Shown here piece after piece: positions 15,343 to 61,202 of a stretch of 64,000 nt of DNA (position 1 is the first letter of the stretch; each line of letters begins with the position of its first letter). Both the position numbers and the translations under genes were made by a program. The DNA comes from a virus: the IMG/VR virus record IMGVR_UViG_3300045988_179859; one strand, written 5' to 3'. The notes below the pieces were generated by a model. The model was not told where the DNA came from. It saw only the letters and a list, made by a program, of their open reading frames with translations, and ran no database searches.

Positions 15343-15354
15343 TGTGATATAATA
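15343..15354 (+). promoter_or_regulatory. element consensus extended -10 TGTGATATAATA
   Basis: 40 nt upstream of CDS 15394. Confidence 0.5.
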
Positions 15355-15393
15355 AGGCTATCTAAAAATTAGTCACGAAAGGACTCTTATAAA

Positions 15394-16611
15394 ATGTTAG
15401 AATATATTGCCGGCATGGATGTCGGAAACGGATATTTAAAACTAGGTATTAACGATAAAGTAGAAGTATTTCCATCAATTGCTGTGAACCGTTACTCTGT
15501 TCACAATGATTTGAAATTGACGCTTGACGATAGCGCTTCGTTTGCGAATGACGCTTTTAATCAAATGGATGCGTCATTCTCAAGTCCTCTCGTAAACGAC
15601 ACAACGCGTCGTATCTTCGGTAGTCGTGCTCTTGCAAGTGGTGAACCATTAGAAGAATTTGACGTATTCTCGCGTAAGTCAAAAGCCGACGATGATCTGT
15701 CAGGGGTTCTCATTCTAGGGTCTCTTGCAAGTCGTGCTATTCACGATTACTACGCAGAACATAAAGCGTTGCCTACTGAGATTCTTCCCGTAGATGTATG
15801 GCTTTCGACAGCTCTTCCGATTGCCGAATATGAAAAACACCATGCAGATTACGCTCATAAATTGAAAAATAGTGGATCTGCACACCTTGTTACGATTCAT
15901 AATTTTGCGCAAACAATCACTATCGCAATTACTATCAAAGAAGTATATATTGCGAACGAAGGTGAGGCTGCCCAATACGGTTTGCGTCACGCGCAGTCTA
16001 ATTTCCTTGACTTGATCGAAGCTGATGCGAAGAAACGTGCGGTCAATGGTGAATTGGATGATGTGACGGGTTACGATTTGGTGCATGCGGAGAATACTCT
16101 CGGCATCGATATTGGTGAAGGGACTGTCGATTTCGCGGTATTCACTAACGGTAAATTCAACCAAGATGCGTCAACGTCATTCTTGAAAGGATACGGAAAC
16201 GTACTCGAGGCGGCACTTGATCGTTTGATCGAAGAAGGATATACTTACAAGACACGTAAAGAGCTCTCTGAGTTTATCAATAAAGAACCTAGCAAGTTGA
16301 GTCGTAACAAGTATACGCACGTAGCTGGTGTTGTAGACGAAGAATCATATCGTTTCGCACAGCAACTTCGTAATGAGATTTCTAAAATCTATACTCGTGT
16401 GGGTGCAACGAATGAAGTTATTTTCGTATACGGTGGTGGTTCAGGTGGTCTTGAACAACACCTCTATAACGAGATCGTGAATCTTTTGTCTGATTTCAAT
16501 AGCGGTGGAACTCCAATCATTTATTTGAACGCTGCATATTCACGTTTCTTGAACGAACACGGTTTGTATAGTCTTGCAAAAGGTCTATATAATATCGCGC
16601 ATAAAGACTAA
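15394..16611 (+). CDS. actin-like ATPase (ParM/Alp family)
   Basis: phosphate-1 motif GMDVGNGYLK and phosphate-2 motif GIDIGEGTVDF. Confidence 0.8.
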   Translation: MLEYIAGMDVGNGYLKLGINDKVEVFPSIAVNRYSVHNDLKLTLDDSASFANDAFNQMDASFSSPLVNDTTRRIFGSRALASGEPLEEFDVFSRKSKADDDLSGVLILGSLASRAIHDYYAEHKALPTEILPVDVWLSTALPIAEYEKHHADYAHKLKNSGSAHLVTIHNFAQTITIAITIKEVYIANEGEAAQYGLRHAQSNFLDLIEADAKKRAVNGELDDVTGYDLVHAENTLGIDIGEGTVDFAVFTNGKFNQDASTSFLKGYGNVLEAALDRLIEEGYTYKTRKELSEFINKEPSKLSRNKYTHVAGVVDEESYRFAQQLRNEISKIYTRVGATNEVIFVYGGGSGGLEQHLYNEIVNLLSDFNSGGTPIIYLNAAYSRFLNEHGLYSLAKGLYNIAHKD

Positions 16612-16620
16612 TAGGGGGCT

Positions 16621-17160
16621 TTGCATATGTCGGTTTACAAAACAATCGGCATTTGTCTAAACTTACTACTACAAATTGCCAGATGGTCGGCTATTTACGG
16701 ATTAATGTTATTAACCGGTCATCTATTAAGGCTCTCTACGAATTGGTCGCTTATGGATATCTATATAGGTATGGTTGTGTTCTGTATCGGTTTTACGGGT
16801 GATCGTTTATTGTTTGCGATACGCTCTGGATTTAACGTGAAGACGTGGGCACTATTAAGTGATTATGTGTGTCTCGCGTTATCGTATAAAATGATGTCAC
16901 TGTTAAGTGGAATCTCAAACGAAACATTTTGGCAGTATTTCGTACTTGCGACGGTATCGATGATCGGGTTAGATGTTCTTTTACAACGTTATATCGGATG
17001 GCTTTTCAAAAACAAGAGGTCACTCTTTAAATTGTTTAGCCACAATACGTTCGTAGTGGACGATCGTTTGATTCATGTCAGTGAATATGAGTTAGATGGA
17101 ACATTTTCAACCTATATGCAAATTTTGGAAACGAAAGCGGGTGTTTCAAATGAACTATAA
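16621..17160 (+). CDS. polytopic membrane protein (179 aa)
   Basis: 4-5 predicted TM segments. Confidence 0.5.
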   Translation: MHMSVYKTIGICLNLLLQIARWSAIYGLMLLTGHLLRLSTNWSLMDIYIGMVVFCIGFTGDRLLFAIRSGFNVKTWALLSDYVCLALSYKMMSLLSGISNETFWQYFVLATVSMIGLDVLLQRYIGWLFKNKRSLFKLFSHNTFVVDDRLIHVSEYELDGTFSTYMQILETKAGVSNEL

Positions 17161-17365
17161 TGCAGATGATATTCGAAATCAGGAATTCCATTTGTCTTTT
17201 CGTGGTTATAAGCCACAAGAAGTTGAGGGATTTCTCGATAAAATTGCAGAAGATTATGTAACCGTTTCTGATTATGAAGAATTGGTTCTTGAGAAGAAAG
17301 AATTAGAAGAAACGGTTGATAAGCTTCGTGAAAAAGTTCGATATTTGGAATCGACTTCGTTATAG
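17150..17365 (+). CDS. DivIVA/GpsB N-terminal domain protein (71 aa)
   Basis: DIRNQEFHLSFRGYKPQEVEGFLDKIAEDY matches the DivIVA/GpsB lipid- and PBP-binding domain; I chose the start at 17150 rather than 17096. Confidence 0.7.
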   Translation: MNYNADDIRNQEFHLSFRGYKPQEVEGFLDKIAEDYVTVSDYEELVLEKKELEETVDKLREKVRYLESTSL

Positions 17366-17373
17366 GTGACGAT

Positions 17374-18165: not shown

Positions 18166-18193
18166 GAAAAAGGATAACTTTGTAGTTATCCTT

Positions 18194-18946: not shown

Positions 18947-19049
18947 AGAATTGTCCTTTCTGTTTGATAAAAACAGTATACCACAAACTGTTGCTTTTGT
19001 ACACCAAATTTGTTATAATTAATAGAATTTAAACAGAAAGGGCTTTATT

Positions 19050-19565: not shown

Positions 19566-19569
19566 GGAA

Positions 19570-20790: not shown

Positions 20791-20846
20791 TTGGCGCGAT
20801 TGTTTAAATTATGATACAATAGAACTAATTAATATGAAAGGACTGT

Positions 20847-24284: not shown

Positions 24285-24286
24285 AA

Positions 24287-24330
24287 ATGAAAATAAAAAA
24301 TGGAAAAGTTGTGCGCTTTTCCTTTTTTTA
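24287..24330 (+). terminator. rho-independent terminator
   Basis: ggaaaag-N7-cttttcc followed by T7. Confidence 0.6.
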
Positions 24331-24376
24331 TGTTATAATAAGTAAGATTAATCTATAAGAAAGGACCTATTTTAAA

Positions 24377-26344
24377 GTGGCTTTAAAAAAGAAGAAAAAG
24401 AAGCAGTCTGTGAAAAAGGTTGCCGAGAAAAAACCACAAGCGAGTGTCGAAGAGGCTCCTGAAACAAATAAGTTGATTCGTCATTCTGATTTTATGAGTA
24501 GGATCAAACCTAAGAATAATTATTATTTCTTTAGTGATTATTTTGTGATTGATGGTTCAACGTATGGGTCAGTTCTAACATTGTTGCATAATGATGGTGC
24601 TGATAATAAACTTCCAAAGTTCTGGGGCGTTTTGGTTTCGTTGAATAACTGGGCGAACGATGAAGAATTTAAGGATGTTCGAATTCGATTTATTAATCAG
24701 GCGCGTAAACGTGATGATAACTGGGTTCGAACCAAACAAGTTCAATCAGAACGGGTTGTTGTATCTGACCAAGTGGAATCAAGTGGATTCTCGCGGAGTG
24801 ATAAAGCAACTGTTGGTGATAATGCGGAAGCTCTCGATCGTGTAACAGAAGAAATTCGTACGGGTGCCGCTTATTTAGATGTGCGTATGCATTATTTAAT
24901 TAAAGCGCCGTCACTTGATGTATTGGATAAAGCAGTTCGTCGTTTGAATCGTAATTTGCGAGATCATTTCGATACAGTTGTGGCTCGAGCGAAGTCTGGG
25001 GCTCAACGTCATGATTTGAATATGTTGCTTCGATCAACTGTTATGAATGATGAACGACAATTCGGTTTTACATCAGAAGAGTATGCTGGTTTTTATAATC
25101 TAGTAACACATGGTATCGAAGATTTGACCGGTGAATATGTTGGTCAGATGCGTGGTGATATTAACGCTTCGGCTGTGTTGTTTGATATTGATAAGTATCG
25201 ACATCATGTTGTAGTAGCGTCTGCGAGGGAAGCTCGGACGATGTCATATACGCAGGAAGAGTTGTCGCCTTATAAACCGCTAAAAGGTGCTGATATGTGG
25301 GGCGTCAAGATTGGACAAAACGCATTGATGAATCGACATCGGGTTGTTCATTTCGTACTAAACGGATCCGATATTCAATCGGTGGGTCTTGATTTATCTC
25401 GATTGACGGCGGACGTTAATATGAGTAAAGGATCGTTGAACCCGTTTGAAGTATTCGGTGAAAAACATGATGAAATGAACTTGTTTGCGGCTCAAACTGA
25501 GAAGATTATCCTGATGGCTCTTATGATGGTCAGTGGTGATGTGAAAGATGAATCATTGATCCGTACTGAACTGAATGATCTCTTGGCTGATTTCTATATT
25601 GACCAAAACATGTGGGTTAAAGATGCGTCAGATGCTATTAACCGAACACAAGTTAAGTTGGTTGGATTGCCTCACTCGGAATATCCACGGTTGCCTGAGT
25701 TTATCGCGTATATCAAACAAGAGTATGAAACACTCGCGCAAGGTGAACGTAACGAACCAGCTCGTCAAGAGCGTCTGAAATTGTTGCACGGTATCTTTAA
25801 AGAGATGCTTGCAAATAATGGTGATATTTTCGATACGATCACGTCTGATCGAATTGATGATGCTGATTATGATTCTCGGGTTATTTATGATTTTTCAGCA
25901 TTGCGTACGCGTGGTGATAACGTCGCAATGGCACAATTCGTAAATGTGTTGTCTTATGCGGTTCGATCTCTTGGTAAAGACGATGTGGTTATTGTTCATG
26001 GAACCGAATTAATTATGGATGTATTGAAACCGTATGTTTCTCGTCAGTTTGATGAATTGTTCAACAAGGGTGTTCGTGTTGTATACTGTTACGGTGATAT
26101 TGACGCGGTTCTCGACGACAAAGACTTTAACGATCTAGATGAAGCCGATTATACTTTGTTTGGACGTATGAGTTTGAACGATATTGATCGCTATCAAGAA
26201 ATTCTAGGTCGAGAAATTCCGAAGAATTTGAATGATTTGATTACGGCCGACAAAGACGAAAGTTGGTATCTGCGACGATCTTTTGAAAACGTGGTGTTCG
26301 ACTGTGACTTAGGGCTCGGCCTTTCTGTAGAAAGCGAGGTCTAA
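24377..26344 (+). CDS. hypothetical protein (655 aa), no P-loop
   Basis: Lys-rich N terminus; no Walker A despite sitting where a VirB4 would be expected. Confidence 0.6.
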   Translation: MALKKKKKKQSVKKVAEKKPQASVEEAPETNKLIRHSDFMSRIKPKNNYYFFSDYFVIDGSTYGSVLTLLHNDGADNKLPKFWGVLVSLNNWANDEEFKDVRIRFINQARKRDDNWVRTKQVQSERVVVSDQVESSGFSRSDKATVGDNAEALDRVTEEIRTGAAYLDVRMHYLIKAPSLDVLDKAVRRLNRNLRDHFDTVVARAKSGAQRHDLNMLLRSTVMNDERQFGFTSEEYAGFYNLVTHGIEDLTGEYVGQMRGDINASAVLFDIDKYRHHVVVASAREARTMSYTQEELSPYKPLKGADMWGVKIGQNALMNRHRVVHFVLNGSDIQSVGLDLSRLTADVNMSKGSLNPFEVFGEKHDEMNLFAAQTEKIILMALMMVSGDVKDESLIRTELNDLLADFYIDQNMWVKDASDAINRTQVKLVGLPHSEYPRLPEFIAYIKQEYETLAQGERNEPARQERLKLLHGIFKEMLANNGDIFDTITSDRIDDADYDSRVIYDFSALRTRGDNVAMAQFVNVLSYAVRSLGKDDVVIVHGTELIMDVLKPYVSRQFDELFNKGVRVVYCYGDIDAVLDDKDFNDLDEADYTLFGRMSLNDIDRYQEILGREIPKNLNDLITADKDESWYLRRSFENVVFDCDLGLGLSVESEV

Positions 26345-26345
26345 T

Positions 26346-29300
26346 GTGAAGAAGTTTAAATGGTTTATTCCACTGTTGCTCGTTGGGTTGACAGTCTTCG
26401 GTGGGAATTTGATTCAAAGTATCTCTCCATCAGCGGGGTCTGTGTTTGTACAGACGGTATATGCCGCTGACGATGAGGATAAAGACAAAGACGCAATTGA
26501 CAGTTCGATTTATGCGAAAGCCAGTGATATCGCAAATGCTTTCAACCAAGGTCTTTCAGCATTAGGTTCTGATAAAGACGAAGATGTTGAAAAAGCGAAT
26601 AAATTGCTCGACTTGGTTCGTCAGAATCCAACTTCAGCAACGAACGTGGGTAATGCTGGTGGAGCTCTTGGTTACGCGGATAATCCGACAGGTTTTGTTA
26701 GTCTTGGTACGAAGTTGAAAAACTGGATTATTTCGAAAGTGTCTGCAAACTCTTCAGCTTATAGTTATAAAGGTCTTGCGAACGTAACACTGAGTCCAAA
26801 CAATGACGATAGAGGCAATAGCGTTAAGACATCTTCTTTTATTGGATATGCTTTATACGGTAAGGCTTTGACTGAAAACGGTTATATGAAGATGGGTGAT
26901 TCGACTATCATTGGTACTGTTATTCAGTTTGGTCGCGTTATTGGTGGTATGATTATCTTGGTTCTTTATATGATCAATTTAGTCATTCCTGTGTTGTTCG
27001 CTGTTGTTCTTAAATTGATGATGATCTTCAATCCATTTGTTTGGTTGGCTAAAGGGTCAGGCGTTGCAAATGCAGCGACAGGCGGTTTATTGAAGAGTGC
27101 TATTGATACAAATATTCCGGGGGCTGAGTTCTTCGGAAACATGGTTCAAAGTTTCAATGGTCTTTATGCCGCGTTGACTTCGGCAGGATTGCTGTCTATT
27201 GTATTCTTGTTGATGTTCTTGATTGCGGGTGTATTCATCTTTGGTAAAATTGGTGGTGTTAAATCACGATTTGTCAAAATTGTGTTGCGTTTATTGATTA
27301 TTGTTTTAGGTATTCCTCTAGTAGGTGGTACTTATACATCAACTCTTAAGTGGCTTCAAAAAGAAGCAGCTGATTCAGGGGCTTCTGGTTATGTGAATTA
27401 TATCATTGCGTCATCGTTTATCCGTGTTGATTCATGGGTTGAAAATACGCGTTTGGCGCCTCCAACAGCAAAAGGTACGCTTGCTACGAGTCCGGGTGCT
27501 TCATTGATTAAGTATAATCCGAAAGAGATGGTTGCGTCTCGTGATACGCAAGATTTACGTCGAGTTGCGGCCGCAATTAATGTTATTGCCGCTCAAGGCG
27601 ATCATGAAGGAACTGGTTCAAATGATTGGGCTCGTGTTCTTGGAAATAATTTAGCAAGTACTAGTTCTAATGCAAGTGATGGATTAAGTTCATATCAAAG
27701 TGCTTCAGGCTATGGTAAAGATCAAGCAACTCTTGATAGCGGTGATTCGTTTACCGCTGATTTGAAAACGGTAGCTAATTCGTCAGCTGTATCATGGGTT
27801 GTAGATACCTTGTTCAAATTTATGGGATCTACTAAATACACGGGCGCCAACTACGATTCATTTGTTAAAGGTACAATTCATTCCAAACCTGGTTTGAAAG
27901 CCGCTAATGGATTGCTTTCATTGAACTTTGAGATCTTAGACAACGTTGGCGATTGGAAGAAAGATACATCGGAGGGCGTCAACAAAGGTTCAACGGGGTA
28001 CATTCTTTATGATGGTACTGGTATTAAAGGGCTAGGTGAGTCTGACGGTGGTAAAGGTGAAGGTGATGCAGGACGAGCTTTTGCTAAAGGCTATACTGAT
28101 CGTAAGTATAACTTCTATAACAATGGTTTCTTATCGGTAACACCTACAGGTAACGGGTTCATGGATAGTGATCAGGTTTCATATTATTTGAAATCAGGTG
28201 GATCTATTGCAAATGGTTCATGGCAAACGTCGCATTTGGATACAGCCGCGAATAATACCGGTTTTGGTTTTTCTGATTTGGCTATGTATAACTTCTTGAA
28301 TACATCGTTTGAAGGATCAGGTATGGTTGTTTATTCACCATCTAATTCGACAAGTATCTTGTCACTTGGTCAATATCAAACAGTTGTTATGCCGGGTCGT
28401 GGATTCGATGTGTTTATGTTATGGCTTGAAACGGTTGTTATTCTCCTAGTATTCGTTATTGTAGGTATTTTGTTCTGGTACGAAATGATTACTAAAGTGT
28501 TCTTCAATTTCTTCGGATTGTTGACGAATATCTTCGGTTCAGCGCTTGGATCACTTAACTTCTTTATGAAGATGGTTCTTTATGCAGGTGCCGCATTGAT
28601 CCAATTAGTAACTGCAATGGTGGCTTATTTAATGATTACACAAATCCTTATGGGTGTTGTGACAATGGCTAGTAAGTTGGCTGCAAATGCGACAATCGTG
28701 TTGCCTCTTGGTGCGATGAATATCCAAGCGGGTGCAACTATTGGTTCAGCTCTCGCTCGTATTCTTTCAATTTTCTTATTGTTGGCTATCGCCTTTAGTG
28801 CTCGCTACGTGTATAAAAAGCACGTAGCCAGTGCTATTATGGAATTCTTCACTGAAATGATTACGAAGTTTACTCATCGTTTGGATCAAGCTCAAGGTGG
28901 AGATGGAACGGCTGGTCAAAAGCTTCAAGCTGCTGGTGAGCAACACAAGAAAGACATTGATAAGTCTGATTATCAAGATGCTCTCGCACAAGAGAAAGCT
29001 CTTGATATGGAAGATCGTCGTCAAGGTAAACAAGGTCGTTCAAATGCTGAACTTCGAGCAGCCGCTCGAGCGAAAGCTATGCAAACTAAAGCAGCTCGAC
29101 TTAATGATGTGGCGCATGGTCGTACAAGTGAACATGCATTGAGCTCTGAAAAAGAATTGCAAGAAAGTCGTAAAGACCAGTTGGCTCAGAAGAAAGACGA
29201 AACGAACGAATATCGTCGTAATGCTCGTGAAATCAAGCGTAATTCTAAATTGTTGGAATCACGTGACTCTGCAATTGCTCAAGAAGTTGCTAAATATAAC

Positions 29301-31134: not shown

Positions 31135-31142
31135 GCACCTCT

Positions 31143-31171
31143 TGACAAACGATTTCATATTTGCTAAACTT
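31143..31171 (+). promoter_or_regulatory. sigma-A promoter TTGACA-17-TGnTAAACT
   Basis: same architecture as the leader promoters. Confidence 0.5.
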
Positions 31172-31267
31172 ATTATTGTAAAAACTTGCCCAAAAATAAT
31201 TAACGAAGGAGAATATTATGGATCTCAATAGGAGGGCAGGCGAGATTCATGGTAGATCATTAGTCCA

Positions 31268-31654: not shown

Positions 31655-31765
31655 TAGTTAGTACGGGATTGAAAGGCTAGGTGAAGACCTAGTCTTTTTT
31701 TTTTGTTGTGAAGTTGAAATATTTGTGATATAATAAGTCTATGACAAAACAGAAAGGGTTTTAAT

Positions 31766-33190
31766 ATGGCTTTTTGGAATAAGGGTATGACCGATGGTGG
31801 TGAAGATACCCGTAAGAATAAGTTAGATAAAGAATTTGACAAAGAAGCTGCCCGTGAAGAACGATTACGTAAATTTAAGATGGGTCAGCACAATATTATT
31901 GAGCGACAACTTGTAACGTTGGGTCTTGCGTTAGGTATTACGATTGTGGGAATCTCTATTTCTGCAAATGGTATGATTAAGAAAAACAGCCAAACGTTAT
32001 CAACAAAAGCAATTTATACGGAGCAAGCGGAATATTCTAAGAACTCAGCTGTTAAGGCGAAGGTTGTATCTGTCAACCGTTCTAAAGATGGAAAAACGGC
32101 TTACTTGTTGTTTTATTTTGAACAACCTGACCAAGTTTCGCAGGATGCTCGAAATTATAAAGTGTTCCTCTCAGCTTTTAATGATCGATTAAAAACCACA
32201 CCTGTTGGAAATATGTTCGTATTTGGTTCAACTGGTTATATGGGTGTTCGAATTCATGATGAAGCCGGTATTCCGAACCAGGTGTTAGATATTACGATTC
32301 GTTCTGAGAAAGATGTGGCAACGTCTAAACAAGATAATGAAAAAGCAACTCTTGAGAACGGATATGGTGAAACGTTTAGAAAATACAATCAGATCCGTTT
32401 TTATGCGAACTTTGGTGCGAAGAAAGCAACTGTTGTGGATTTAGCAAACGATGCATCGCCGTCTGAAATGTATTATCAATTAGTTGGTAAAGAAGAAGAT
32501 AAGAAATTGTTGGCTGAGTATGACGAAGAAGTTGCTTCTATCAAGACACAATTGGCTCGTATTGAAGAATATCAAACACGTATTGCCGATCGCGGTTACG
32601 ATGTACCAGAGCTTCCAGAAGTGTTCCGCGATATGAAAGTTACAGCCGATGGTCTTGAAACAACAGCAGTTGTTCCAGGTGGTTATAATTTGAAAGCGGG
32701 TTCTACGCTTCGTGATGGTTATTTGAAACAGTTAATTACTGGCGATATTGATGAAGATGATATTTCTAATTTGTTGGCTGTCAAGTCAGCTGAAACGAGT
32801 GGTTCGTTAACGAAGCAAGTTCAAAAATCAGATGGTACGTATGAAACCGTTGAGGTCAATATTGATAAGTCTAAATTAAAAGGTTTAGCGACAGTTGGTA
32901 ACGACGTACAGTCTTCACTTCAAATCAGAACGTTGAAGAAAACAGGTAGTGACCAAACGCTTGAGCTGAGCGCTGTTCAATCGGATCTTAATTCATCTAC
33001 GGAAATGGCTGTGGCGAAAGATGCGGAACAGTTGAGTCAAGCGTATCAAGCGCTATTCCAATCGTTGCAAAAGGTTCAGGTTACAATTAACCGTAAGCGT
33101 GTTGCTTTGGATGAAGGAATGTTATCACAAAAAACCCTTTATACTCAAACATCAGGTGCGAAGACATTTAATGTTTGGCAACAAAAATAA
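31766..33190 (+). CDS. membrane-anchored extracytoplasmic protein (474 aa), VirB8/TcpC-like candidate
   Basis: single N-terminal TM then about 390 aa outside the membrane. Confidence 0.5.
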   Translation: MAFWNKGMTDGGEDTRKNKLDKEFDKEAAREERLRKFKMGQHNIIERQLVTLGLALGITIVGISISANGMIKKNSQTLSTKAIYTEQAEYSKNSAVKAKVVSVNRSKDGKTAYLLFYFEQPDQVSQDARNYKVFLSAFNDRLKTTPVGNMFVFGSTGYMGVRIHDEAGIPNQVLDITIRSEKDVATSKQDNEKATLENGYGETFRKYNQIRFYANFGAKKATVVDLANDASPSEMYYQLVGKEEDKKLLAEYDEEVASIKTQLARIEEYQTRIADRGYDVPELPEVFRDMKVTADGLETTAVVPGGYNLKAGSTLRDGYLKQLITGDIDEDDISNLLAVKSAETSGSLTKQVQKSDGTYETVEVNIDKSKLKGLATVGNDVQSSLQIRTLKKTGSDQTLELSAVQSDLNSSTEMAVAKDAEQLSQAYQALFQSLQKVQVTINRKRVALDEGMLSQKTLYTQTSGAKTFNVWQQK

Positions 33191-33278
33191 GAATAAGCCC
33201 GTCCAATTCGGGCTTTTTTGAGACTTTTTAGGGCTTTTGTGATATAATAGGCTTAGTTATTTGCAGAAAGGAATAGTC

Positions 33279-36565: not shown

Positions 36566-36682
36566 TTCTTTTGCGAAAACCTGTAATTCTATTATAGGTT
36601 TTCTTTTAAAATGTTTTATTTTTGGCGTTTTTTAAGATATTGTGATATAATGTTAGTATGTTTTGATGAAAGGAAATATGTG

Positions 36683-38399: not shown

Positions 38400-38410
38400 A
38401 AATTGGGTCT

Positions 38411-38440
38411 TGACATTTTTAGTTGAAAAGATATACAATA
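38411..38440 (+). promoter_or_regulatory. sigma-A promoter TTGACA-16/17-TATACAAT
   Basis: followed by 10-bp-stem hairpin 38444-38467 and a second hairpin 38478-38495 in the leader. Confidence 0.5.
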
Positions 38441-38532
38441 ATAGCGTAGTGAATACTACGCTATTATTTCTTTGCCGGTTTAAAGGAAACCGTGCACGCG
38501 GCTTTTTCCAGTCGTAAATGAAAGGAAAACAA

Positions 38533-39114: not shown

Positions 39115-39180
39115 GTTGTACGGTTTGCTATGAAGGCAGATGAAAATCTGCCTTTCTTTTTTAAGTAAAGGATTAAAATC

Positions 39181-41040: not shown

Positions 41041-41119
41041 TCGACTTAAAATGTTGTCATTTTAAGAAAAAAATGATATAATAGACCTGCTATTAAATAA
41101 GAACTATACGAGGTACTAA

Positions 41120-44383: not shown

Positions 44384-44412
44384 AGCGAAAACTTTTGCGT
44401 TTTCGCTTTTTA
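44384..44412 (+). terminator. hairpin/terminator agcgaaaac-tttt-gttttcgct
   Basis: 9-bp perfect stem followed by T-run. Confidence 0.55.
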
Positions 44413-44463
44413 TTTGATATAATGGACACATAGATTAAAAATAAACAGAAGGGATCTCACTAA

Positions 44464-49502: not shown

Positions 49503-49583
49503 GAAAACACTACCCAAAACACTAGTTGGACGTAAAAAATAAGTTCAGAAAACACTAGCTATCTGGGTAGTGTTTTTTTTTTG
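49503..49583 (+). repeat. three AAAACACTA(C/G) direct repeats embedded in a long inverted repeat (cactaccc … gggtagtg) plus T-run
   Basis: repeat copies at 49504, 49516 and 49549; 8-bp outer stem; T10. Confidence 0.5.
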
Positions 49584-49600
49584 CAAGCAAAGGTCAAAAA

Positions 49601-49610
49601 TGATATAATA
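49601..49610 (+). promoter_or_regulatory. extended -10 TGATATAATA only 6 nt upstream of ATG 49616 (leaderless mRNA candidate)
   Basis: no SD; -10 ends 5 nt before the start codon. Confidence 0.45.
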
Positions 49611-49615: not shown

Positions 49616-51481
49616 ATGAAAAGAACGAATGAATATGTAAAAGTTCCAAATGGAACGATGTTTTTCCCTAAGGTCTATTTGACGCGAGACGAAATTACGA
49701 ATATGTACGTTTACGGACACGTGCGTCCAAGTTGGTTTAAGTTGGTGCTTGTTGACGATTCGGAACTCGATGAAATTATAGCCGTAAATAAGCCTCTGAG
49801 ATCGTCTAAGGTTGAGGCATATAATCAGCTTGTCGCTCTCTCAAACGCTCGCTATGACGAAATGAGAGCCGATTTAGAACGTTTTGCAGATGGTTCGTTA
49901 GACTTGATGGATTTGTCGGTGAAATATTGGACTTATTTTAAAGATACTCGTAAGTTGTTTAAAGATGTTTTGACGGATGTCGATGTTGATTTCTTTTGGA
50001 AACAGCATAAAAAGCACAGTCAAAAAGAAACAACGATGCGAATCTATGGCGTAGAGCACACGACGCAGTTGGAGTCTAATCAAGAACTACGCAAGCAAAC
50101 GACTCGTCAAAAATATGGCGTAGATAACGTTATGCAGTTGGATTCTATTAAGCAAAAACAAAAGGAAACAATGCTTGAGAAATACGGTGCTGATCACAAT
50201 TTTAAGTTATCGGATGCGGTACGATCATGGAATAAGCATGTTTATGAGATCTTAAAAGAAGAATGGGCTGATGTTTTTGAAAAGTTAGGTGTTATGTCGG
50301 CACAAGATATTGCGTCCGTTTTGAATTTAAAAAGACGATCTTTTGTTTTATACGGCGACGACGAAATGGCGCTGATCTCTTTGTTAGAAGCGTGGGCGAA
50401 GATTAAAGGCGAACCTGTCGTCTATCCAACTAATGCGATGTTTCGATTAAATATGACGTTTACGTGCCCATGGTTAACACTTTATAGTAAGCGTGGTTTA
50501 GTTTCTGTTCCAGATGCATTTTTGAATACGTCAGCGTCACGTTATGAACAGATGGTTGCGAATTACTTAGACGAACTTGGTGTCGATTACGTTGCGAATC
50601 ATCGTAAGCTATTAAACGGATTAGAACTTGATTTCTATATTCCGTCTAAGAATCTCGCAATCGAAGTCAATCCGAACTGCTCACATAATAGTAATCTTTA
50701 TGCGACAGAACCTGAGCGTGTCTGTTACGGACACGTGCAAGAGGCTTTTTACCACTATAACAAGTACAAGTCAGCCGCTAAGAAGGGCATTACTTTGATT
50801 CACTTGTATGGTTACGATTTAGATCCTGTGGTATTCAACACGCGCACGAAAACACGCATTAAGCAACTTGTGAGTGGCTATTCTGTCCGATTATTTGCGA
50901 GAAACACTGTGATTAAAAAGGCCACGAAGCAAGCGGACAAGAAAAAAGCACGCGAATTTCTTAATGAATATCACGTGCAAGGTGCGAGTAGAGCATCTGT
51001 TTATTATCTAGTTTATAATGATTCTAATTTAGTGGCGGTTGCGTCTTTTGATATGAATAATCGTAATTTTGAATCGGAATTGAAGCGTTTGTGCGTGAAA
51101 CCGGATGTACAAATTGTGGGGCTAACGTCGAAGATTATTGCTCGTTTCTTTAAAGATTACGATATAGAAGAACTTTACAGTTATTCTGATAATAATATCG
51201 GTAATGGTTTGTCTTATCAGAAAGCAGGTGGCGTTTTGGTCAAGGAAACTGGTCCGTCACTCTTATTTAGTTCCTGGACAGATCCGACAGATGTTTATTC
51301 GTGGCAGATTGCGACACCATGGGGCGCGCGCGAGGGATTACTGTCGAAGTACGGTCAATTTGATTCGCAAGAGAAGATTGACCTGTTTGTCGAGACAGAA
51401 TTGCCTCACCGGACAGACGATAAGAAGGGCTATGACAGAATCTATACAGCTGGTTCTAAGCTGTGGTTATTTAAAAGATGA
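49616..51481 (+). CDS. Vsr/DUF559-like nuclease-fold protein with triplicated KYGxxHxxQL module
   Basis: LELDFYIPSKNLAIEVNPNCSH resembles the Vsr/DUF559 core; C-terminal domain paralogous to 55508-57064. Confidence 0.6.
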   Translation: MKRTNEYVKVPNGTMFFPKVYLTRDEITNMYVYGHVRPSWFKLVLVDDSELDEIIAVNKPLRSSKVEAYNQLVALSNARYDEMRADLERFADGSLDLMDLSVKYWTYFKDTRKLFKDVLTDVDVDFFWKQHKKHSQKETTMRIYGVEHTTQLESNQELRKQTTRQKYGVDNVMQLDSIKQKQKETMLEKYGADHNFKLSDAVRSWNKHVYEILKEEWADVFEKLGVMSAQDIASVLNLKRRSFVLYGDDEMALISLLEAWAKIKGEPVVYPTNAMFRLNMTFTCPWLTLYSKRGLVSVPDAFLNTSASRYEQMVANYLDELGVDYVANHRKLLNGLELDFYIPSKNLAIEVNPNCSHNSNLYATEPERVCYGHVQEAFYHYNKYKSAAKKGITLIHLYGYDLDPVVFNTRTKTRIKQLVSGYSVRLFARNTVIKKATKQADKKKAREFLNEYHVQGASRASVYYLVYNDSNLVAVASFDMNNRNFESELKRLCVKPDVQIVGLTSKIIARFFKDYDIEELYSYSDNNIGNGLSYQKAGGVLVKETGPSLLFSSWTDPTDVYSWQIATPWGAREGLLSKYGQFDSQEKIDLFVETELPHRTDDKKGYDRIYTAGSKLWLFKR

Positions 51482-51570
51482 GTCTTTTGCGAGACTCGCA
51501 AAAGTGCATGTTTGTGCGAAATCGGTGACGAAACTCGCAGAAATTTGCACTTTTTTTTGTAATCGTTTTA

Positions 51571-51580
51571 TGATATAATA
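51571..51580 (+). promoter_or_regulatory. element consensus extended -10 TGATATAATA
   Basis: upstream of the coupling-protein gene. Confidence 0.5.
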
Positions 51581-55485: not shown

Positions 55486-55521
55486 AAAGAAAAACTCTAG
55501 CGAAATGCTAGAGTTTTTTTA
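55486..55521. terminator. bidirectional terminator shared by convergent genes
   Basis: A7, then actctagc-N5-gctagagt, then T7. Confidence 0.65.
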
Positions 55522-57064
55522 TGTAGCGAAGACTTCCTGTGTCGTACACGCGATAGTAATTTCGACTGCGCATGATTTCAATTTCGCTTAAGTTGCTATC
55601 AAAACCTTCTCGCACGAGTTTCTTTTTCGTTGTCTCATAGCGAGTTTTGCAATCGAATGTGTTACGCTGAACCCATACGTAATTCGGTGGCGTTATTCCG
55701 TCTAGAATAAAACCAGAGCGTTCGTATATGTTGGACACTGTAAAGCGCTTATTGAGGTCCATGTATGTGACGAGCGTTTCACCGTTTGTTGTATAGTGTT
55801 TTGTGAAGTACATTAGTAGCTTATCAAAGGCACCGTGCACGATATAGTGTGGATTGACACAATATCGGTATAGTTCCCACGTATGAGATGTAAATCTCGA
55901 TTTTCCACAAGTGAGCACGGCTATCAACTCGTCACCATAATACATACCGAAACGGTGAAGTGCGCTTTGATCTGCACCTTGGAAATGATAACGATTCAGA
56001 AATTTTTGAGAGGTTTTCTTGTCAATTTCTTTAACGATGCACTTGCGAGCACCGATTTTGGGTTTGTTTTCGGTGAGTGTTTGGATTCGTGTTTCGAGCG
56101 CTTTTAGCTTTTGAGTGCTCTGTAAGTCAGAATCGTAAATGTGGACGAGTGCGATCTTGTCTTTTAGTGCTTGTTGAGATTTGGCTTGATGGTAGTTTTT
56201 ATCCGTGAAGCCCCTTTTTGGATCATCGATGGTATGCGTCGATATGGGATTTACTTCGATGCCGAGGTTGTGATCGGGAAGCCAAATATCGATTTCCTGC
56301 TTGTTGGTTAAGAGATCACGTCGATTTAGTTGGTACTTAATATTGTTATCTTGTAAGATTTTCAGTACCGTTGCAACTTGGTTGGATGTACTTGTGGGTT
56401 TTACGAGATGATTGAGCTCATACGTGTTGAAATACCAAGACACGGTCGCGGGCGCGATATGGAGGTACTGTGCGAGATTACTTTTCGACGGTACTTCTTG
56501 GTGTTCGTTTATGTAATCGCGAATAGCGTTTAGGTAGCGAAGTCTGGTGGATTTTGCTTTACCGTGTAACTTCTCAGCGTCGATAAAGGCTTGATCGAGT
56601 TCTGATAAGTCATCTGTGAATTGTTTTTGGTAATGATGTTTCACCATTAATCGCTTCAGATTTTCTATTCGGATGCCGTATTTGCTCGCGACAGTGACTT
56701 TTGCGATGCCTTTATCGAGGTCTGTCGCGATGCTCGGCCAAAGCTCATCGTGTTTTCTTTCAAAATGTTTATGGACGTTTTCGCCACGAGTCCATGTGAC
56801 GCCTTCTTTTGCGAGGATTCGTGAGATGGCGCCATGGCTAACTTGAAAGCGCTTCGCTATCTCGTTGATTGTATAGCCATCATGATAGAGGTTCTGTATG
56901 GCTTGTGGGTCGAGATTTAGTGGTTGTTTTTCGATACCTAAATCTTTCAAGTATCTCGATACAGTGGCTGTTGATAGCTTTGTTTCGCGAGCGATTTCTT
57001 TTAAGGTTTTCTTTTGCGCGCGTAGCTTGCGCAACTCGCTCGCGAGGTTCTCTGTAAGTGGCAT
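55508..57064 (-). CDS. Vsr/DUF559-like nuclease-fold protein with N-terminal tandem HTH modules
   Basis: QEIDIWLPDHNLGIEVNPISTH core; C-terminal domain paralogous to 49616-51481. Confidence 0.65.
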   Translation of the reverse strand: MPLTENLASELRKLRAQKKTLKEIARETKLSTATVSRYLKDLGIEKQPLNLDPQAIQNLYHDGYTINEIAKRFQVSHGAISRILAKEGVTWTRGENVHKHFERKHDELWPSIATDLDKGIAKVTVASKYGIRIENLKRLMVKHHYQKQFTDDLSELDQAFIDAEKLHGKAKSTRLRYLNAIRDYINEHQEVPSKSNLAQYLHIAPATVSWYFNTYELNHLVKPTSTSNQVATVLKILQDNNIKYQLNRRDLLTNKQEIDIWLPDHNLGIEVNPISTHTIDDPKRGFTDKNYHQAKSQQALKDKIALVHIYDSDLQSTQKLKALETRIQTLTENKPKIGARKCIVKEIDKKTSQKFLNRYHFQGADQSALHRFGMYYGDELIAVLTCGKSRFTSHTWELYRYCVNPHYIVHGAFDKLLMYFTKHYTTNGETLVTYMDLNKRFTVSNIYERSGFILDGITPPNYVWVQRNTFDCKTRYETTKKKLVREGFDSNLSEIEIMRSRNYYRVYDTGSLRYIKKL

Positions 57065-57170
57065 GTGATCGTCCTTTCTATATAGTTATTTTATCATAAA
57101 ATTCGTTCAAGTTCTATTATGGCACGAAACTTGTTCGTGCTTTTTTGGGTGTTGCGTTTGAGATGATTGT

Positions 57171-57180
57171 ATGGTATAAT
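57171..57180 (+). promoter_or_regulatory. extended -10 TGGTATAAT
   Basis: upstream of the adhesin gene. Confidence 0.45.
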
Positions 57181-59602: not shown

Positions 59603-59640
59603 AAAAAATAAAAGATACTCGTAAGAGTATCTTTTTTTTA
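59603..59640. terminator. bidirectional terminator aaagatactc-gtaa-gagtatcttt (copy of 3783-3816)
   Basis: A8, then stem, then T8. Confidence 0.7.
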
Positions 59641-59641
59641 A

Positions 59642-61096
59642 TTATTCGTGATCGAATGGCACGTCTGTGTTTTCGATAACGTCGGCTTGAGCTTTGCCCA
59701 TTGCGCGACCTGTGAGGGTTGCTTGGATGAGATCTTTGACATCGAGACCCATGCCGTTTGTGATTTGGTTCATTGACGTCATGATGTCGCCAACCATTTT
59801 TCCAGAATTGCCCTCACCGTACATCGTGATCTTATCAACGTTCGAAAGTGGAGCGGCAACGTTTTTAGCGATTTCAGGCAAGACGTTGACGAGCATTTCT
59901 GTGATAGCGGCTTCACCGTATTTCTTCATTGCTTCCGCTTTCTTGTCAAGACCTTCTGCTTCGGCATCGAGTTTCATGCGGATAGCTTCGGCTTCGGCTT
60001 TACCTTTAGCTTCGATCCCTTTTGCTTCTTCTTCAGCTTGACGACGATTTGCTTCAGCGCGACGTTCTTGAGCTTCAGCTTCTTTTTGAGTTTCGAAGAG
60101 TTCAGCTTCAGCTGCTTTTTGACGACGAATCAATTCAGCTTCGGCGTTACGTTCAGCTGCGTATTTTTGTGCATCAGCTTCCGCCTCAACGCTGGCGGCT
60201 AGAGCTTGACGTTTAACGGCAACTTCGCGTTCTTTGACTTTAGCTTCTTGTTCTTGACGGGCAATTTCTGCTTCAGCTGTTTCAATTTCGATTGATTTAC
60301 GTTGAATTTGTGCTTGAATGTTGTACGCGGCTTCGGCTTTAGCTCGTTCTGTGTCTGATTCAACTTTAAGAGCTGCTTGTCGTTTAGCTAATTCCGTGTT
60401 CTTTTCAGCGATTTCAAGTTCTGCTTTGACGCGAGCATCATTGGCGAGTTTATTTGAAACAGCTTGTTGTTCTTGAACTTCTTGGGTTGCTTTAGCTTTA
60501 GCGATAGCTGCATCTTTCTTGATAGTTTCGGTATTGTCTACACCGAGATTATCAATAACACCATTTGCATCAGAAAGTCCTTGGATGTTGAAGGCAACAA
60601 TTTCAAGACCCATTTCTTCAAGGTCTTTGGTTGCATTTGCTTGAACGTTTTCTGAGAATACAGCACGATTTGTGACGATATCTTCCAATTTCATTTGGCC
60701 GATGATAGCACGCAAGTGTCCTTCAAGAGTGTCGCGGACTTCATCTGCGATTTCAGATGTGTCTTTGTATAAGAAGTTACGAGTTGCTGCTTTAAAGAGT
60801 TCTTCTTTATCGATTCCGATACGAACTTTTACAGCCGCATCAACTTTGATGTTGATGTAGTTGTTTGTTGGTACGAAATCAGCAGTACGAACATCGACAG
60901 AGATCATTGAAGCTGTCATGACGTCTACGCGTTCAATTAATGGAATTTTCCATCCAGTTTTACCGTGAATCGTACGCTGACCCCACGGTCCAGATACGAC
61001 TTTGATTTGTCCGGGACTTGCTGATACAAATCCTGAAGCGATGATTGTTCCGATAATCAGAACGAGGATTCCGATTACGATCCATGTGATAGGCAT
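59642..61096 (-). CDS. flotillin/SPFH-domain protein (FloT/YuaG-like)
   Basis: N-terminal TM; SPFH core; Ala/Glu-rich coiled coil with EAEA repeats. Confidence 0.85.
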   Translation of the reverse strand: MPITWIVIGILVLIIGTIIASGFVSASPGQIKVVSGPWGQRTIHGKTGWKIPLIERVDVMTASMISVDVRTADFVPTNNYINIKVDAAVKVRIGIDKEELFKAATRNFLYKDTSEIADEVRDTLEGHLRAIIGQMKLEDIVTNRAVFSENVQANATKDLEEMGLEIVAFNIQGLSDANGVIDNLGVDNTETIKKDAAIAKAKATQEVQEQQAVSNKLANDARVKAELEIAEKNTELAKRQAALKVESDTERAKAEAAYNIQAQIQRKSIEIETAEAEIARQEQEAKVKEREVAVKRQALAASVEAEADAQKYAAERNAEAELIRRQKAAEAELFETQKEAEAQERRAEANRRQAEEEAKGIEAKGKAEAEAIRMKLDAEAEGLDKKAEAMKKYGEAAITEMLVNVLPEIAKNVAAPLSNVDKITMYGEGNSGKMVGDIMTSMNQITNGMGLDVKDLIQATLTGRAMGKAQADVIENTDVPFDHE

Positions 61097-61140
61097 AAGA
61101 ATATATTCCTTTCAAATAATAAATTTCTAATTAGTTTTTG

Positions 61141-61168
61141 TTCGTTGGCTAGGCCAACGAATTTTTTA
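61141..61168 (+). terminator. hairpin ttcgttggc-tag-gccaacgaa followed by T-run
   Basis: 9-bp perfect stem. Confidence 0.5.
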
Positions 61169-61190
61169 AGGCTTGTGTTTGTAATTTTAA

Positions 61191-61202
61191 TGTGATATAA
61201 TA
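61191..61202 (+). promoter_or_regulatory. element consensus extended -10 TGTGATATAATA
   Basis: 40 nt upstream of ATG 61243. Confidence 0.5.

What the first reader, a model, noticed from the sequence alone, without database searches (positions are those of the whole stretch)
15343..61202. Element-wide conserved extended -10 promoter T(G)TGATATAATA heading nearly every operon
Near-identical TGTGATATAATA elements occur at 15343, 31724, 33238, 36641 and 61191. Close variants occur at 41074, 44415, 49601, 51571, 57171, 24331, 20811 and 19012. All lie 30-60 nt upstream of operon start codons, and most follow a terminator. The -35 matches are weak. This suggests a coordinated regulon, either extended-10-driven constitutive expression or recognition by a common regulator. 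One instance, at 49601, sits 6 nt from the ATG, which implies a leaderless mRNA.
Basis: seen in the sequence. Interest (0 to 1): 0.5.

Follow-up and report, generated by a model that had tools for sequence, protein, structure and literature searches.

The report
Housekeeping extended -10 promoters, element-wide
The repeated TGTGATATAATA motif is the standard strong promoter signal read by the main RNA polymerase of Gram-positive bacteria, sitting in front of almost every gene block of a large uncultured conjugative element; it is real and under selection, but it is an ordinary kind of signal, not a special regulon.

Summary
TGTGATATAATA occurs 4 times exactly (0.01 expected). TRTGNTATAAT occurs 14 times (0.48 expected). 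A generic sigma-A model not trained on the window gives 33 hits (5 expected), 29 of them in the 10% of the window that is non-coding.

Aligned on the -10, the sites read T-rich tail, TTGnnn, 17 bp, TRTGn, TATAAT, about 30-57 nt, GAAAGGA, start codon. This is the textbook Gram-positive sigma-A "-16 region" promoter.

In 18 relatives (91-96% identical) the core positions mismatch at 0.6%. The two degenerate positions (R at -16, n at -13) mismatch at 25%, like third codon positions, and -16 changes are A/G. TTG of the -35 and the -1/+1 pair are also conserved. No other shared motif exists, so a dedicated regulator is not supported.

Relatives at 52% protein identity keep the terminator-plus-promoter arrangement at orthologous gaps. 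The leaderless inference at 49616 is supported: there is no SD, the N-terminus is conserved, and the same -10 plus 6 nt plus ATG geometry occurs in a homolog at about 45% identity.

Verdict: real, functional-looking, ordinary. TSS are unmapped and the host is unknown.

The parts
88..116 (+). promoter TTGATT-17-TGTGG-TAGAAT heading non-coding unit 1 (36-nt repeats plus skipping-rope RNA)
   Evidence: PWM 15.6
425..453 (+). promoter TTGACA-17-TAGACT heading non-coding unit 2
   Evidence: 13.9
751..779 (+). promoter TTGATT-17-TGTGA-TAGAAT, non-coding unit 3
856..884 (+). promoter TTGACG-17-TGTGG-TAGACT, non-coding unit 4
   Evidence: 16.0
1009..1037 (+). promoter TTGCAT-17-TTTGA-TAGAAT, non-coding unit 5
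1199..1227 (+). promoter TTGACA-17-TTTGA-TAGAAT, non-coding unit 6
   Evidence: 16.4
1701..1729 (+). promoter TTGACA-17-TATGT-TAGACT, small RNA unit 7
1808..1836 (+). promoter TTGACA-17-TTTGA-TATACT, small RNA unit 8
1927..1955 (+). promoter TTGACA-17-TATGC-TATACT, small RNA unit 9
   Evidence: (17.7)
2035..2063 (+). promoter TTGACA-17-TATGA-TAAACT, small RNA unit 10
2150..2178 (+). promoter TTGCGT-17-TGTGC-TATAAT, non-coding unit 11
2701..2728 (+). promoter (AGTGC-TATAAT) 35 nt before the ATG at 2764
4987..5015 (-). promoter TTGCGA-17-TATGC-TATAAT before the C5-methylase gene (start 4947)
9043..9053 (-). TATGATATAAT before the PASTA-domain gene (start 9011); no TTG at 16-18 bp
9742..9752 (-). 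TGTGCTATAAT before the 101-aa gene (start 9712)
10217..10244 (-). promoter TTGACA-16-TGTGC-TATAAT before the HU gene (start 10131)
   Evidence: 19.7, the best score in the window
13676..13704 (-). promoter TTGACA-17-TTTGC-TATACT before the MerR-like/primase operon (start about 13636)
15219..15247 (+). promoter TTGACT-17-TATGC-TATAAT; its short transcript runs into the terminator at 15261-15302
15325..15353 (+). promoter TTGCAC-17-TGTGA-TATAAT before the actin-like partition operon (ATG 15394)
18991..19019 (+). promoter TTGCTT-17-TTTGT-TATAAT before 19050
20791..20820 (+). promoter TTGGCG-18-TATGA-TACAAT before the topoisomerase gene (ATG 20850)
24329..24339 (+). TATGTTATAAT immediately after the terminator at 24302-24329, before GTG 24377
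31142..31170 (+). promoter TTGACA-17-TAAACT; the -10 is degraded in this allele and is TGTATAAT in L002/3/6/7/8; before the leader and the gene at 31268
31706..31734 (+). promoter TTGTGA-17-TGTGA-TATAAT after the terminator at 31671-31704, before ATG 31766
33218..33248 (+). TGTGATATAAT (TTGAGA at 19 bp) after the terminator at 33195-33219, before ATG 33279
36622..36651 (+). promoter TTGGCG-18-TGTGA-TATAAT after the terminator at 36575-36607, before ATG 36683
38410..38439 (+). promoter TTGACA-18-TACAAT (no TG) in an almost invariant region, before 38518
41054..41082 (+). promoter TTGTCA-17-AATGA-TATAAT before ATG 41120 (332-aa gene plus MobL relaxase operon)
44395..44423 (+). promoter TTGCGT-17-TTTGA-TATAAT after the terminator at 44384-44411, before ATG 44464
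   Evidence: orthologous site L010:19159
49581..49609 (+). promoter TTGCAA-17-AATGA-TATAAT after the terminator at 49548-49582; the -10 ends 6 nt before ATG 49616
49616..51481 (+). DUF7487 gene with a predicted leaderless mRNA (predicted +1 is the A of the ATG)
51569..51579 (+). TATGATATAAT before the coupling-protein gene (ATG 51637); no TTG at 16-18 bp
57152..57180 (+). promoter TTGCGT-17-TATGG-TATAAT after the hairpin at 57121-57146, before the adhesin gene (ATG 57218)
61173..61201 (+). promoter TTGTGT-17-TGTGA-TATAAT after the hairpin at 61141-61167, before the surface-protein gene (ATG 61243)
39132..39162 (+). intrinsic terminator followed directly by the SD and ATG 39181 with no promoter (a read-through unit; the exception to the rule)

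Best explanation
The motif is the core of ordinary housekeeping-sigma (sigma-A, sigma-70 family) promoters of the Gram-positive "-16 region" or extended -10 class. The full form is TTGnnn, 17 bp, T-R-T-G-n, TATAAT.

Mechanism, from established knowledge of this class: sigma region 2 reads TATAAT. Region 3.0 contacts the TG (in Firmicutes the longer TRTG), which stabilises the open complex. As a result only the TTG of the -35 needs to be kept. Transcription starts 7 nt after the -10 at a purine.

The element is a large conjugative element, probably a megaplasmid, of an uncultured Bacilli-type host seen in metagenome assemblies. It is cut into many short transcription units. Almost every intergenic gap holds an intrinsic terminator, then such a promoter, then a 30-57 nt leader with a GAAAGGA ribosome-binding site. 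One unit, the DUF7487 gene at 49616, starts directly at the AUG and is leaderless.

Shown here: the sequence pattern, its enrichment, its placement and orientation, and purifying selection that matches the RNA polymerase contact pattern. Inferred: that host sigma-A holoenzyme uses the sites, where the transcripts start, and that expression is largely constitutive.
For: - Enrichment.
- A generic sigma-A matrix not trained on the window gives 33 hits against 5.1 in block shuffles; 29 of 33 lie in the 10.3% non-coding DNA and point at the downstream unit.
- Alignment on the -10 shows TTG at 16-18 bp in 19 of 24 sites and an SD GAAAGGA downstream.
- Footprint over 13 promoters, each compared with 8-18 of 18 related loci at 91-96% identity. 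Core positions (-17, -15, -14, -12 to -7) mismatch at 0.6%; 3 of 117 site-positions vary. Positions -16 and -13 mismatch at 25%; 12 of 26 vary, and -16 changes are A/G in 36 of 38 cases. Other values: spacer 11%, discriminator 27%, -35 TTG 2.3%, -1/+1 2.0%. Codon positions 1/2/3 mismatch at 2.5/1.3/20.3%. Fisher test, core against other intergenic positions: P = 5e-9.
- +1 is A or G in 109 of 128 comparisons, as expected for a start 7 nt after the -10 (PMC12641261).
- Divergent alleles keep only the promoter core, the terminator stem (with compensatory changes) and the SD.
- A relative at 52% protein identity (L010) has TRTGGTATAAT after terminators at orthologous gaps. More distant loci with GC of 33-52% use the same consensus in their gaps.
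- Literature: TRTGNTATAAT is the common promoter form in B. subtilis and S. pneumoniae, with a poorly conserved -35 (PMC5036317). 885 of 892 S. pyogenes TSS have extended -10 boxes with a less conserved -35 (PMC6431027).
Against: - No transcription start site or expression data exist for this element.
- The host is unidentified. There is only one remote hit in 185,579 species genomes and no relative in PLSDB or the phage collection.
- Promoter-specific repressors with different operators at each promoter cannot be excluded. A MerR-like protein (12947-13756) and a 518-aa multi-HTH protein (55508-57064) are encoded.
- A at -13 is more stable than expected for a free position: 59 of 61 comparisons keep A, whereas C and T sites vary.
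- Only part of the element is in the window. Related contigs are 56-303 kb, so a sigma factor or regulator could lie outside it.
Confidence: 0.86

Rival explanations
1. A dedicated regulon. An element-encoded sigma factor or a common DNA-binding regulator recognises the 12-mer TGTGATATAATA and switches all units together.
For: - The 12-mer is identical at four sites.
- A at -13 and A after the hexamer are more uniform than the generic consensus requires.
- Elements differ in their preferred -13 base: A or C in the window, G in L010.
- HTH proteins are encoded in the window.
Against: - Selection in relatives is absent at -16 (beyond purine), at -13 overall, and at -6 to -2 (25-27% mismatch). 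A protein reading the whole 12-mer would constrain these positions.
- No additional shared word or palindrome flanks the sites.
- No sigma-factor domain hit passing a curated threshold was found in any scanned ORF.
- The same consensus heads units in relatives with GC of 33-52% and matches the published host-polymerase consensus (PMC5036317).
Confidence: 0.06
2. Master-promoter model. As in pLS20, the conjugation genes are mainly expressed from one regulated upstream promoter by processive antitermination through the many internal terminators. The extended -10 sites would be minor secondary promoters.
For: - The element has a MobL relaxase like pLS20.
- It has many intrinsic terminators inside the transfer region.
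- pLS20 has more than 20 internal terminators read through by conAn (PMC8191782).
- At least one unit (39181) has a terminator but no promoter, so some read-through must occur.
Against: - No ConAn1 domain (PF17362) was found in any scanned window ORF.
- The 171-aa protein at 19050 has no plasmid homolog.
- The internal promoters are near-consensus and under stronger constraint than second codon positions, which is not expected for incidental secondary promoters.
- The two models are not mutually exclusive.
Confidence: 0.08
3. The matches are chance products of AT-rich intergenic DNA, or copies of one duplicated or mobile sequence.
For: - The window is about 39% GC and its gaps are T-rich.
- A plain -35/-10 hexamer scan is not enriched: 49 found against 52 expected, and 56 against 52.5.
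Against: - Dinucleotide-preserving and block shuffles give far fewer matches.
- Every intergenic match upstream of an ORF points at that gene and lies 6-146 nt (mostly 29-57 nt) from its start.
- Sequences flanking the core differ between sites, so they are not repeat copies.
- Core positions are conserved in relatives, while the one genic match at 27397 is not.
Confidence: 0.01

Closest known systems
Gram-positive sigma-A "-16 region" (TRTGn) extended -10 promoters (B. subtilis, S. pneumoniae, S. pyogenes)
   Same: The sequence is identical (TRTGnTATAAT). The spacer is 17 bp. The -35 is poorly conserved apart from TTG. The start is predicted about 7 nt downstream at a purine. A Firmicutes-type SD follows (PMC5036317, PMC6431027, PMC12641261).
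   Different: Nothing differs in the motif itself. Only the setting is particular. There are about 30 near-consensus copies in 64 kb of a mobile element, and most sit directly behind an intrinsic terminator. TSS are not mapped.
E. coli sigma-70 extended -10 (TGn) promoters
   Same: TG at -15/-14 is one base upstream of TATAAT and compensates for an imperfect -35 (established knowledge; PMC2613000, title and abstract only).
   Different: Here the four-base TRTG form is conserved, with T at -17 invariant in relatives, and the TTG of the -35 is retained at 17 bp.
pLS20 conjugation operon (single promoter Pc plus conAn processive antitermination)
   Same: It is a conjugative element of a Gram-positive host with a MobL-family relaxase. 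It has many intrinsic terminators within the transfer gene region (PMC8191782).
   Different: pLS20 uses one regulated promoter and reads through its terminators. Here almost every terminator is followed by its own near-consensus promoter, and no ConAn1 (PF17362) is detectable in the window. Relaxase identity to the plasmid MobL relaxases matched in PLSDB is only about 21-33%.
Leaderless mRNAs of streptococci (about 9% of mRNAs)
   Same: The -10 box ends 6 nt before an AUG, there is no SD, and the arrangement is kept in a distant homolog. Conservation of leaderless status across species is documented (PMC6431027).
   Different: The 5' end has not been mapped. Other homologs of the same gene (L020, L021) use a normal SD leader.

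Membership tests
Sigma-A extended -10 (TRTGn) promoter | -10 hexamer TATAAT or a near match | tested here: met
   20 of the 24 sites aligned have a perfect TATAAT (the 20th perfect TGNTATAAT is the genic site 27397). The others are TAGAAT or TACAAT, and further units outside that set carry TAGACT, TATACT or TAAACT. Positions -12, -11 and -7 are 100% conserved in 128 comparisons.
Sigma-A extended -10 (TRTGn) promoter | TG at -15/-14, with T at -17 and a purine at -16 | tested here: met
   TRTGNTATAAT occurs 14 times against 0.48 expected. Positions -17, -15 and -14 are invariant in relatives. Position -16 varies A/G in 36 of 38 changes.
Sigma-A extended -10 (TRTGn) promoter | -35 element about 17 bp upstream, which may be partial | tested here: met
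   TTG sits at 16-18 bp in 19 of 24 sites, 15 of them at 17 bp. TTG mismatches at 2.3% against 9.0% for the 3' half.
Sigma-A extended -10 (TRTGn) promoter | Intergenic, oriented towards a downstream gene or RNA | tested here: met
   29 of 33 PWM hits lie in the 10.3% non-coding DNA, and all are co-oriented with the next unit.
Sigma-A extended -10 (TRTGn) promoter | Primary transcript 5' end 6-8 nt downstream of the -10 | not testable with these tools
   Only indirect evidence is available. The base 7 nt downstream is 100% conserved and is a purine in 109 of 128 comparisons. The -1 base is 96% conserved and is mostly a pyrimidine.
Sigma-A extended -10 (TRTGn) promoter | Use by host sigma-A holoenzyme without an accessory factor | not testable with these tools
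   The host is unknown. No sigma gene was seen in the window.
Leaderless mRNA (gene 49616-51481) | Start codon AUG at or within a few nt of the TSS | tested here: inconclusive
   The geometry fits exactly: the -10 is 49604-49609, and 6 nt later comes ATG 49616. The TSS has not been measured.
Leaderless mRNA (gene 49616-51481) | No Shine-Dalgarno sequence, and the annotated Met is the true start | tested here: met
   There is no room for an SD. The next in-frame ATG (codon 15) has only GGA upstream. Residues 2-19 are conserved from this Met in 31 homologs down to 41% identity.
Leaderless mRNA (gene 49616-51481) | Arrangement conserved in relatives | tested here: met
   L022 (about 45% identity, GC 33%) has TTGACA-17-TGTGTTATAAT, then 6 nt, then ATG. 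The extension MWYNRTM of P0022 implies TGGTATAAT, then 6 nt, then ATG. L020 and L021 are SD-led.
conAn-type processive antitermination (pLS20-like) | ConAn1 protein (Pfam PF17362) near the start of the conjugation region | tested here: not met
   No PF17362 hit was found in any scanned ORF, even at E up to 1 for the small ones. Only this 64-kb window was tested.

The most novel reading that the evidence does not exclude
This family of uncultured conjugative elements may have given up the single, tightly regulated conjugation operon typical of Gram-positive elements. In its place it would have 16 or more terminator-insulated units, each with its own near-consensus constitutive promoter, and one of them leaderless.

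The same promoter type also drives a 2.5-kb array (1-2500) of about 12 orphan small RNAs. These include a skipping-rope RNA, three 36-nt tandem repeats that resemble type III antitoxin arrays, and an RNA that on lactic-acid-bacteria plasmids precedes an RNase-like ORF. Such RNAs could act as anti-defence or antitoxin decoys expressed as soon as the element enters a cell.
Probability: 0.15. Interest if true: 0.6.

Novelty: new member of a known kind. Interest (0 to 1): 0.22.

Why it matters
On its own the motif teaches nothing new about transcription. It is the textbook Gram-positive housekeeping promoter. Its practical value is annotation:

- It gives a conserved, base-resolution promoter, terminator and RBS map for an uncharacterised conjugative element that recurs in many metagenome assemblies. 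The element's 474-aa and actin-like proteins are indexed in 106 and 146 blocks of the contig collection.
- It corrects three start codons.
- It predicts one leaderless gene.
- It shows a transcriptional layout of many insulated units, which contrasts with the single-operon-plus-antitermination layout of pLS20.
- It also points to the ORF-free small-RNA array at 1-2500, which is the more unusual feature of the window.

Tried and rejected
- Megablast of 24 kb against PLSDB and the phage collection gave no match. The relaxase finds only MobL relatives at 21-33% identity. The element could therefore not be tied to a known plasmid or host.
Host identity remains unresolved, so I could not compare the motif with the host's own promoters.
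- The built-in hexamer-only promoter scan is uninformative: 49 found against 52 expected, and 56 against 52.5. The signal appears only when the extended -10 is included.
- A search for any further shared word around 20 promoters, to test for an operator, found only T-runs and the SD. An earlier version with mismatches timed out.
- The conAn hypothesis gave no PF17362 hit and no plasmid homolog for the 171-aa protein.
- PADLOC, NCBIfam and Pfam gave nothing for the 333-aa protein at 2764 or for the roughly 215-aa ORFs next to the unit-2 RNA on LAB plasmids, apart from one sub-threshold RNase hit.
- A viral-contig scan for the unit-2 core found nothing.
- The supplementary text of the skipping-rope paper is not held.
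- MFE z-scores are not significant for units 1, 2, 4 and 11.

Full report
**Observation**

The 12-mer TGTGATATAATA is present exactly at 15343, 31724, 33238 and 61191, all on the + strand. Dinucleotide-preserving shuffles give 0.01 matches. With up to two mismatches there are 26 matches against 9.9 expected.
- on the + strand, 106, 769, 1027, 1217, 2168 and 2718;
- on the minus strand, 9042, 9741 and 10216.

The shorter, standard patterns are also strongly enriched. TGNTATAAT occurs 20 times against 3.7 expected. TRTGNTATAAT occurs 14 times against 0.48 expected. A plain -35/-10 hexamer scan is not enriched, so the signal lies in the extended -10.

**What the window is**

Pfam places the sites on a large conjugative element of Gram-positive type:
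- an actin-like partition protein at 15394;
- a type IA topoisomerase at 20847;
- a lysozyme/CHAP wall hydrolase at 34586;
- a MobL relaxase at 42175;
- a ClpB-like ATPase at 45132;
- a coupling protein at 51637;
- GbpC/SSSPR and G5 surface proteins;
- a sortase;
- on the minus-strand arm, a D5-type primase-helicase, a MerR-like protein, HU, a PBP and a C5 methylase.

GC content is about 39%. PLSDB and the phage collection hold nothing similar at the DNA level. The relaxase is only 21-33% identical to the plasmid MobL relaxases matched in PLSDB. Identical proteins occur on many metagenome contigs of 56-303 kb. Only one remote relative was found in 185,579 species genomes, an uncultured Bacilli MAG. 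The host therefore remains unnamed.

**Anatomy**

I aligned 24 sites on the -10. They read:
1. a T-rich stretch, usually the tail of a terminator;
2. TTGnnn;
3. a spacer that places the -35 16-18 bp from the hexamer, usually 17, and whose last five bases are T/A-R-T-G-n;
4. TATAAT;
5. a leader of about 30-57 nt containing GAAAGGA;
6. the start codon.

TTG lies 16-18 bp from the hexamer in 19 of 24 sites, 15 of them at exactly 17 bp. About 17 of 24 sites have a hairpin plus T-run within 20-70 nt upstream (coordinates).

A sigma-A weight matrix written from the general Firmicutes consensus, not trained on this window, gives 33 hits at a threshold where block shuffles give 5.1. Of these, 29 lie in the 10.3% of the window that is non-coding, and all point at the downstream unit.

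**Selection**

Eighteen related loci at 91-96% DNA identity cover window 4.9-43.2 kb. I compared 13 promoters, each with the 8-18 loci that cover it. Mismatch rates were as follows:

| Positions | Mismatch rate | Notes |
|---|---|---|
| Core (-17, -15, -14, -12 to -7) | 0.6% | 3 of 117 site-positions vary |
| Degenerate (-16, -13) | 25% | 12 of 26 vary; 36 of 38 changes at -16 are A/G |
| Spacer | 11% | |
| Discriminator (-6 to -2) | 27% | |
| -35 TTG | 2.3% | |
| -35 3' half | 9.0% | |
| -1/+1 pair | 2.0% | |
| Codon positions 1/2/3 | 2.5 / 1.3 / 20.3% | |

The Fisher test of core against other intergenic positions gives P = 5e-9. The base 7 nt after the hexamer is invariant, and it is a purine in 109 of 128 comparisons.

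So the pattern of constraint reproduces the degeneracy of TRTGnTATAAT, and the expected start point, position by position. In gaps where two diverged alleles exist (33145-33315 and 36520-36730), only the promoter core, the terminator stem and the SD survive. The 31671 terminator shows compensatory stem changes. The single genic antisense match at 27397 is lost in 7 of 8 relatives, which serves as an internal control.

**Deeper relatives**

- L010 (52% protein identity in the 474-aa marker, GC 36%) has TGTGGTATAAT, TATGGTATAAT or TGTGATATAAT after terminators in the gaps orthologous to 24334, 31165, 31729, 36646, 41077 and 44418.
- L015 and L016 (36% and 27% identity to that marker) have promoter-like sequences in some of the same gaps, but they are weaker or follow a different consensus.
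- L020, L021 and L022 (43-45% identity in the DUF7487 protein; GC 40%, 52% and 33%) also put TTGACA-17-TRTGnTATAAT-type sites in their intergenic gaps.

The arrangement is therefore a family trait.

**Regulator test**

Outside the -35, TRTG and -10 elements, the only words enriched around 20 promoters are T-runs and the SD. No sigma factor and no ConAn1 antitermination protein (PF17362) was found in any scanned ORF. I therefore see no evidence for a dedicated factor. Promoter-specific repressors cannot be excluded.

**Comparison with what is known**

- TRTGNTATAAT with a poorly conserved -35 is described as the common promoter form of B. subtilis and S. pneumoniae (PMC5036317).
- 885 of 892 S. 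pyogenes TSS carry extended -10 boxes with less conserved -35 boxes (PMC6431027).
- TSS centre 7 bp downstream of the -10, and TRTG is noted as the Firmicutes form (PMC12641261).

The motif is thus a member of a thoroughly known class. The contrast is in genome organisation. pLS20, the MobL archetype, expresses a conjugation operon of more than 32 kb from one promoter. It reads through more than 20 internal terminators with conAn (PMC8191782, PMC13401043). Here nearly every terminator is followed by its own promoter.

**Leaderless claim**

The -10 at 49604-49609 ends 6 nt before ATG 49616, so the predicted +1 is the A of the ATG. No SD is possible in that space. Thirty-one homologs down to 41% identity align from this same Met, with residues 2-19 conserved. 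Three gene calls that read upstream translate the promoter itself (WYNRTM corresponds to TGGTATAATAGAACNATG). L022 shows TTGACA-17-TGTGTTATAAT, then 6 nt, then ATG. Two other homologs, L020 and L021, use an SD leader. About 9% of streptococcal mRNAs are leaderless, and this status is conserved between species (PMC6431027). The inference is therefore well supported but unmeasured, and it is not unusual.

Region 1-2500 has no credible ORF. It holds about 12 consecutive units on the + strand, each consisting of a promoter, a short transcript and a terminator.

- Unit 1 carries three 36-nt tandem repeats and a skipping-rope RNA (RF02924, 54 bits).
- The unit 2 core is 78-82% identical to unannotated DNA on 15 lactic-acid-bacteria plasmids. 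In the two I examined it precedes a roughly 215-aa ORF that is absent from the window.
- Units 7-10 and 12 fold as a 5' hairpin, then a single-stranded stretch, then a strong terminator. The stretch carries CUCC or CCUCC in units 8-10. The z-scores are -2.5 to -6.5.
- A relative, L035, keeps the array with unit loss and with compensatory stem changes.

I followed this up only partly. It is the basis of the more novel reading.

**Verdict**

It is wrong to suspect a special regulon. The feature is a new set of instances of a known kind, and its interest is low.

Noticed in passing
window 1-2500 (+ strand): This is an ORF-free array of about 12 consecutive units, each a promoter, a short transcript and a terminator. 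The -10 boxes are at 111, 448, 774, 879, 1032, 1222, 1724, 1831, 1950, 2058, 2173 and about 2384. Units 7-10 and 12 fold as a 5' hairpin, then a single-stranded stretch (with CUCC or CCUCC in units 8-10), then a strong terminator (z = -2.5 to -6.5). Relative L035 keeps the array with unit loss and compensatory stem changes.
   Followed up: partly
window 123-421: One transcription unit holds three 36-nt tandem repeats (134-241). Each ends in AAAAA, and a GGT/ACC to AGT/ACT covariation is seen between repeats. A skipping-rope RNA follows (RF02924, 311-388, 54 bits), then a terminator. The repeats resemble type III antitoxin arrays, but no toxin ORF follows and Rfam finds no ToxI.
   Followed up: partly
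window 510-638; L033:2501-2630; L034:2501-2630: The unit 2 core is 78-82% identical to unannotated DNA on 15 Lactococcus, Lactobacillus and Streptococcus plasmids. In the two examined (L033, L034) it has its own promoter-like sequence and terminator, and about 40 nt further on there is a roughly 215-aa ORF (sub-threshold PBECR4 RNase hit, E = 0.033). That ORF is missing in the window. The RNA is not in Rfam. Some covariation is seen with three sequences.
   Followed up: partly
window 38400-38520: This intergenic stretch is almost invariant among 8 relatives that differ by 4-9% elsewhere. It holds TTGACA-18-TACAAT, then a perfect 14-bp hairpin (38437-38468), then further conserved sequence, about 3.7 kb upstream of the relaxase gene. 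It is a candidate oriT or small RNA.
   Followed up: no
window 31142-31267: A leader of about 100 nt before the gene at 31268 is 100% conserved in 8 relatives. It contains a 17-codon uORF (MDLNRRAGEIHGRSLVQ) and a CTTGCCC/GGGCAGG pairing. The window allele, shared with L004 and L005, has a degraded -10 (TAAACT, with a 1-nt deletion), whereas L002/3/6/7/8 have TGTATAAT.
   Followed up: no
window 39132-39183: A terminator hairpin plus T-run is followed directly by AAAGGA and ATG 39181, with no room for a promoter. The 619-aa gene must therefore be expressed by read-through from the 38518 unit. This could be an attenuation point.
   Followed up: no
window 15219-15302: A strong promoter (TTGACT-17-TATGCTATAAT, PWM 18.3) lies 106 nt upstream of the partition-operon promoter. 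Its transcript would end after about 50 nt at the hairpin and T-run at 15261-15302. It may be a small RNA or a regulatory leader near the presumed origin region.
   Followed up: no
all promoter sites; L010: The free base at -13 is element- or arm-specific. It is A at 11 of the 15 right-arm sites aligned, and C at 2173, 2723, 4992, 9747, 10222 and 15242. It is G at 6 of 9 TGnTATAAT matches in L010. A at -13 is kept in 59 of 61 comparisons, while C and T sites vary.
   Followed up: partly
window 24377-31109, 31766-33190, 39181-41040, 47193-49499: Several large proteins of the transfer region (655, 1587, 474, 619 and 768 aa) have no credible Pfam match. The four tested against NCBIfam (all but the 1587-aa protein) have none there either. 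No VirB4-type ATPase was recognised in the window, which is unusual for a conjugative system.
   Followed up: no
L001:19432-20610; L008:7607-9667; L027:1939-3570 and 11919-13253; L028:11916-13250: Relatives carry IS605/TnpB-type or Y1-transposase insertions. Those in L001 and L008 lie in intergenic gaps of the window map. The 444-aa ORFs in L027 and L028 replace the small DivIVA-like gene at 17096-17365.
   Followed up: no
window 2533-2646 (minus strand): A small, very acidic 37-aa ORF (MVRIMPNNYPDWLEERFGDDIPDWAEERWGDDDDDDE) lies between the RNA array and the gene at 2764. It is absent from relative L035.
   Followed up: no
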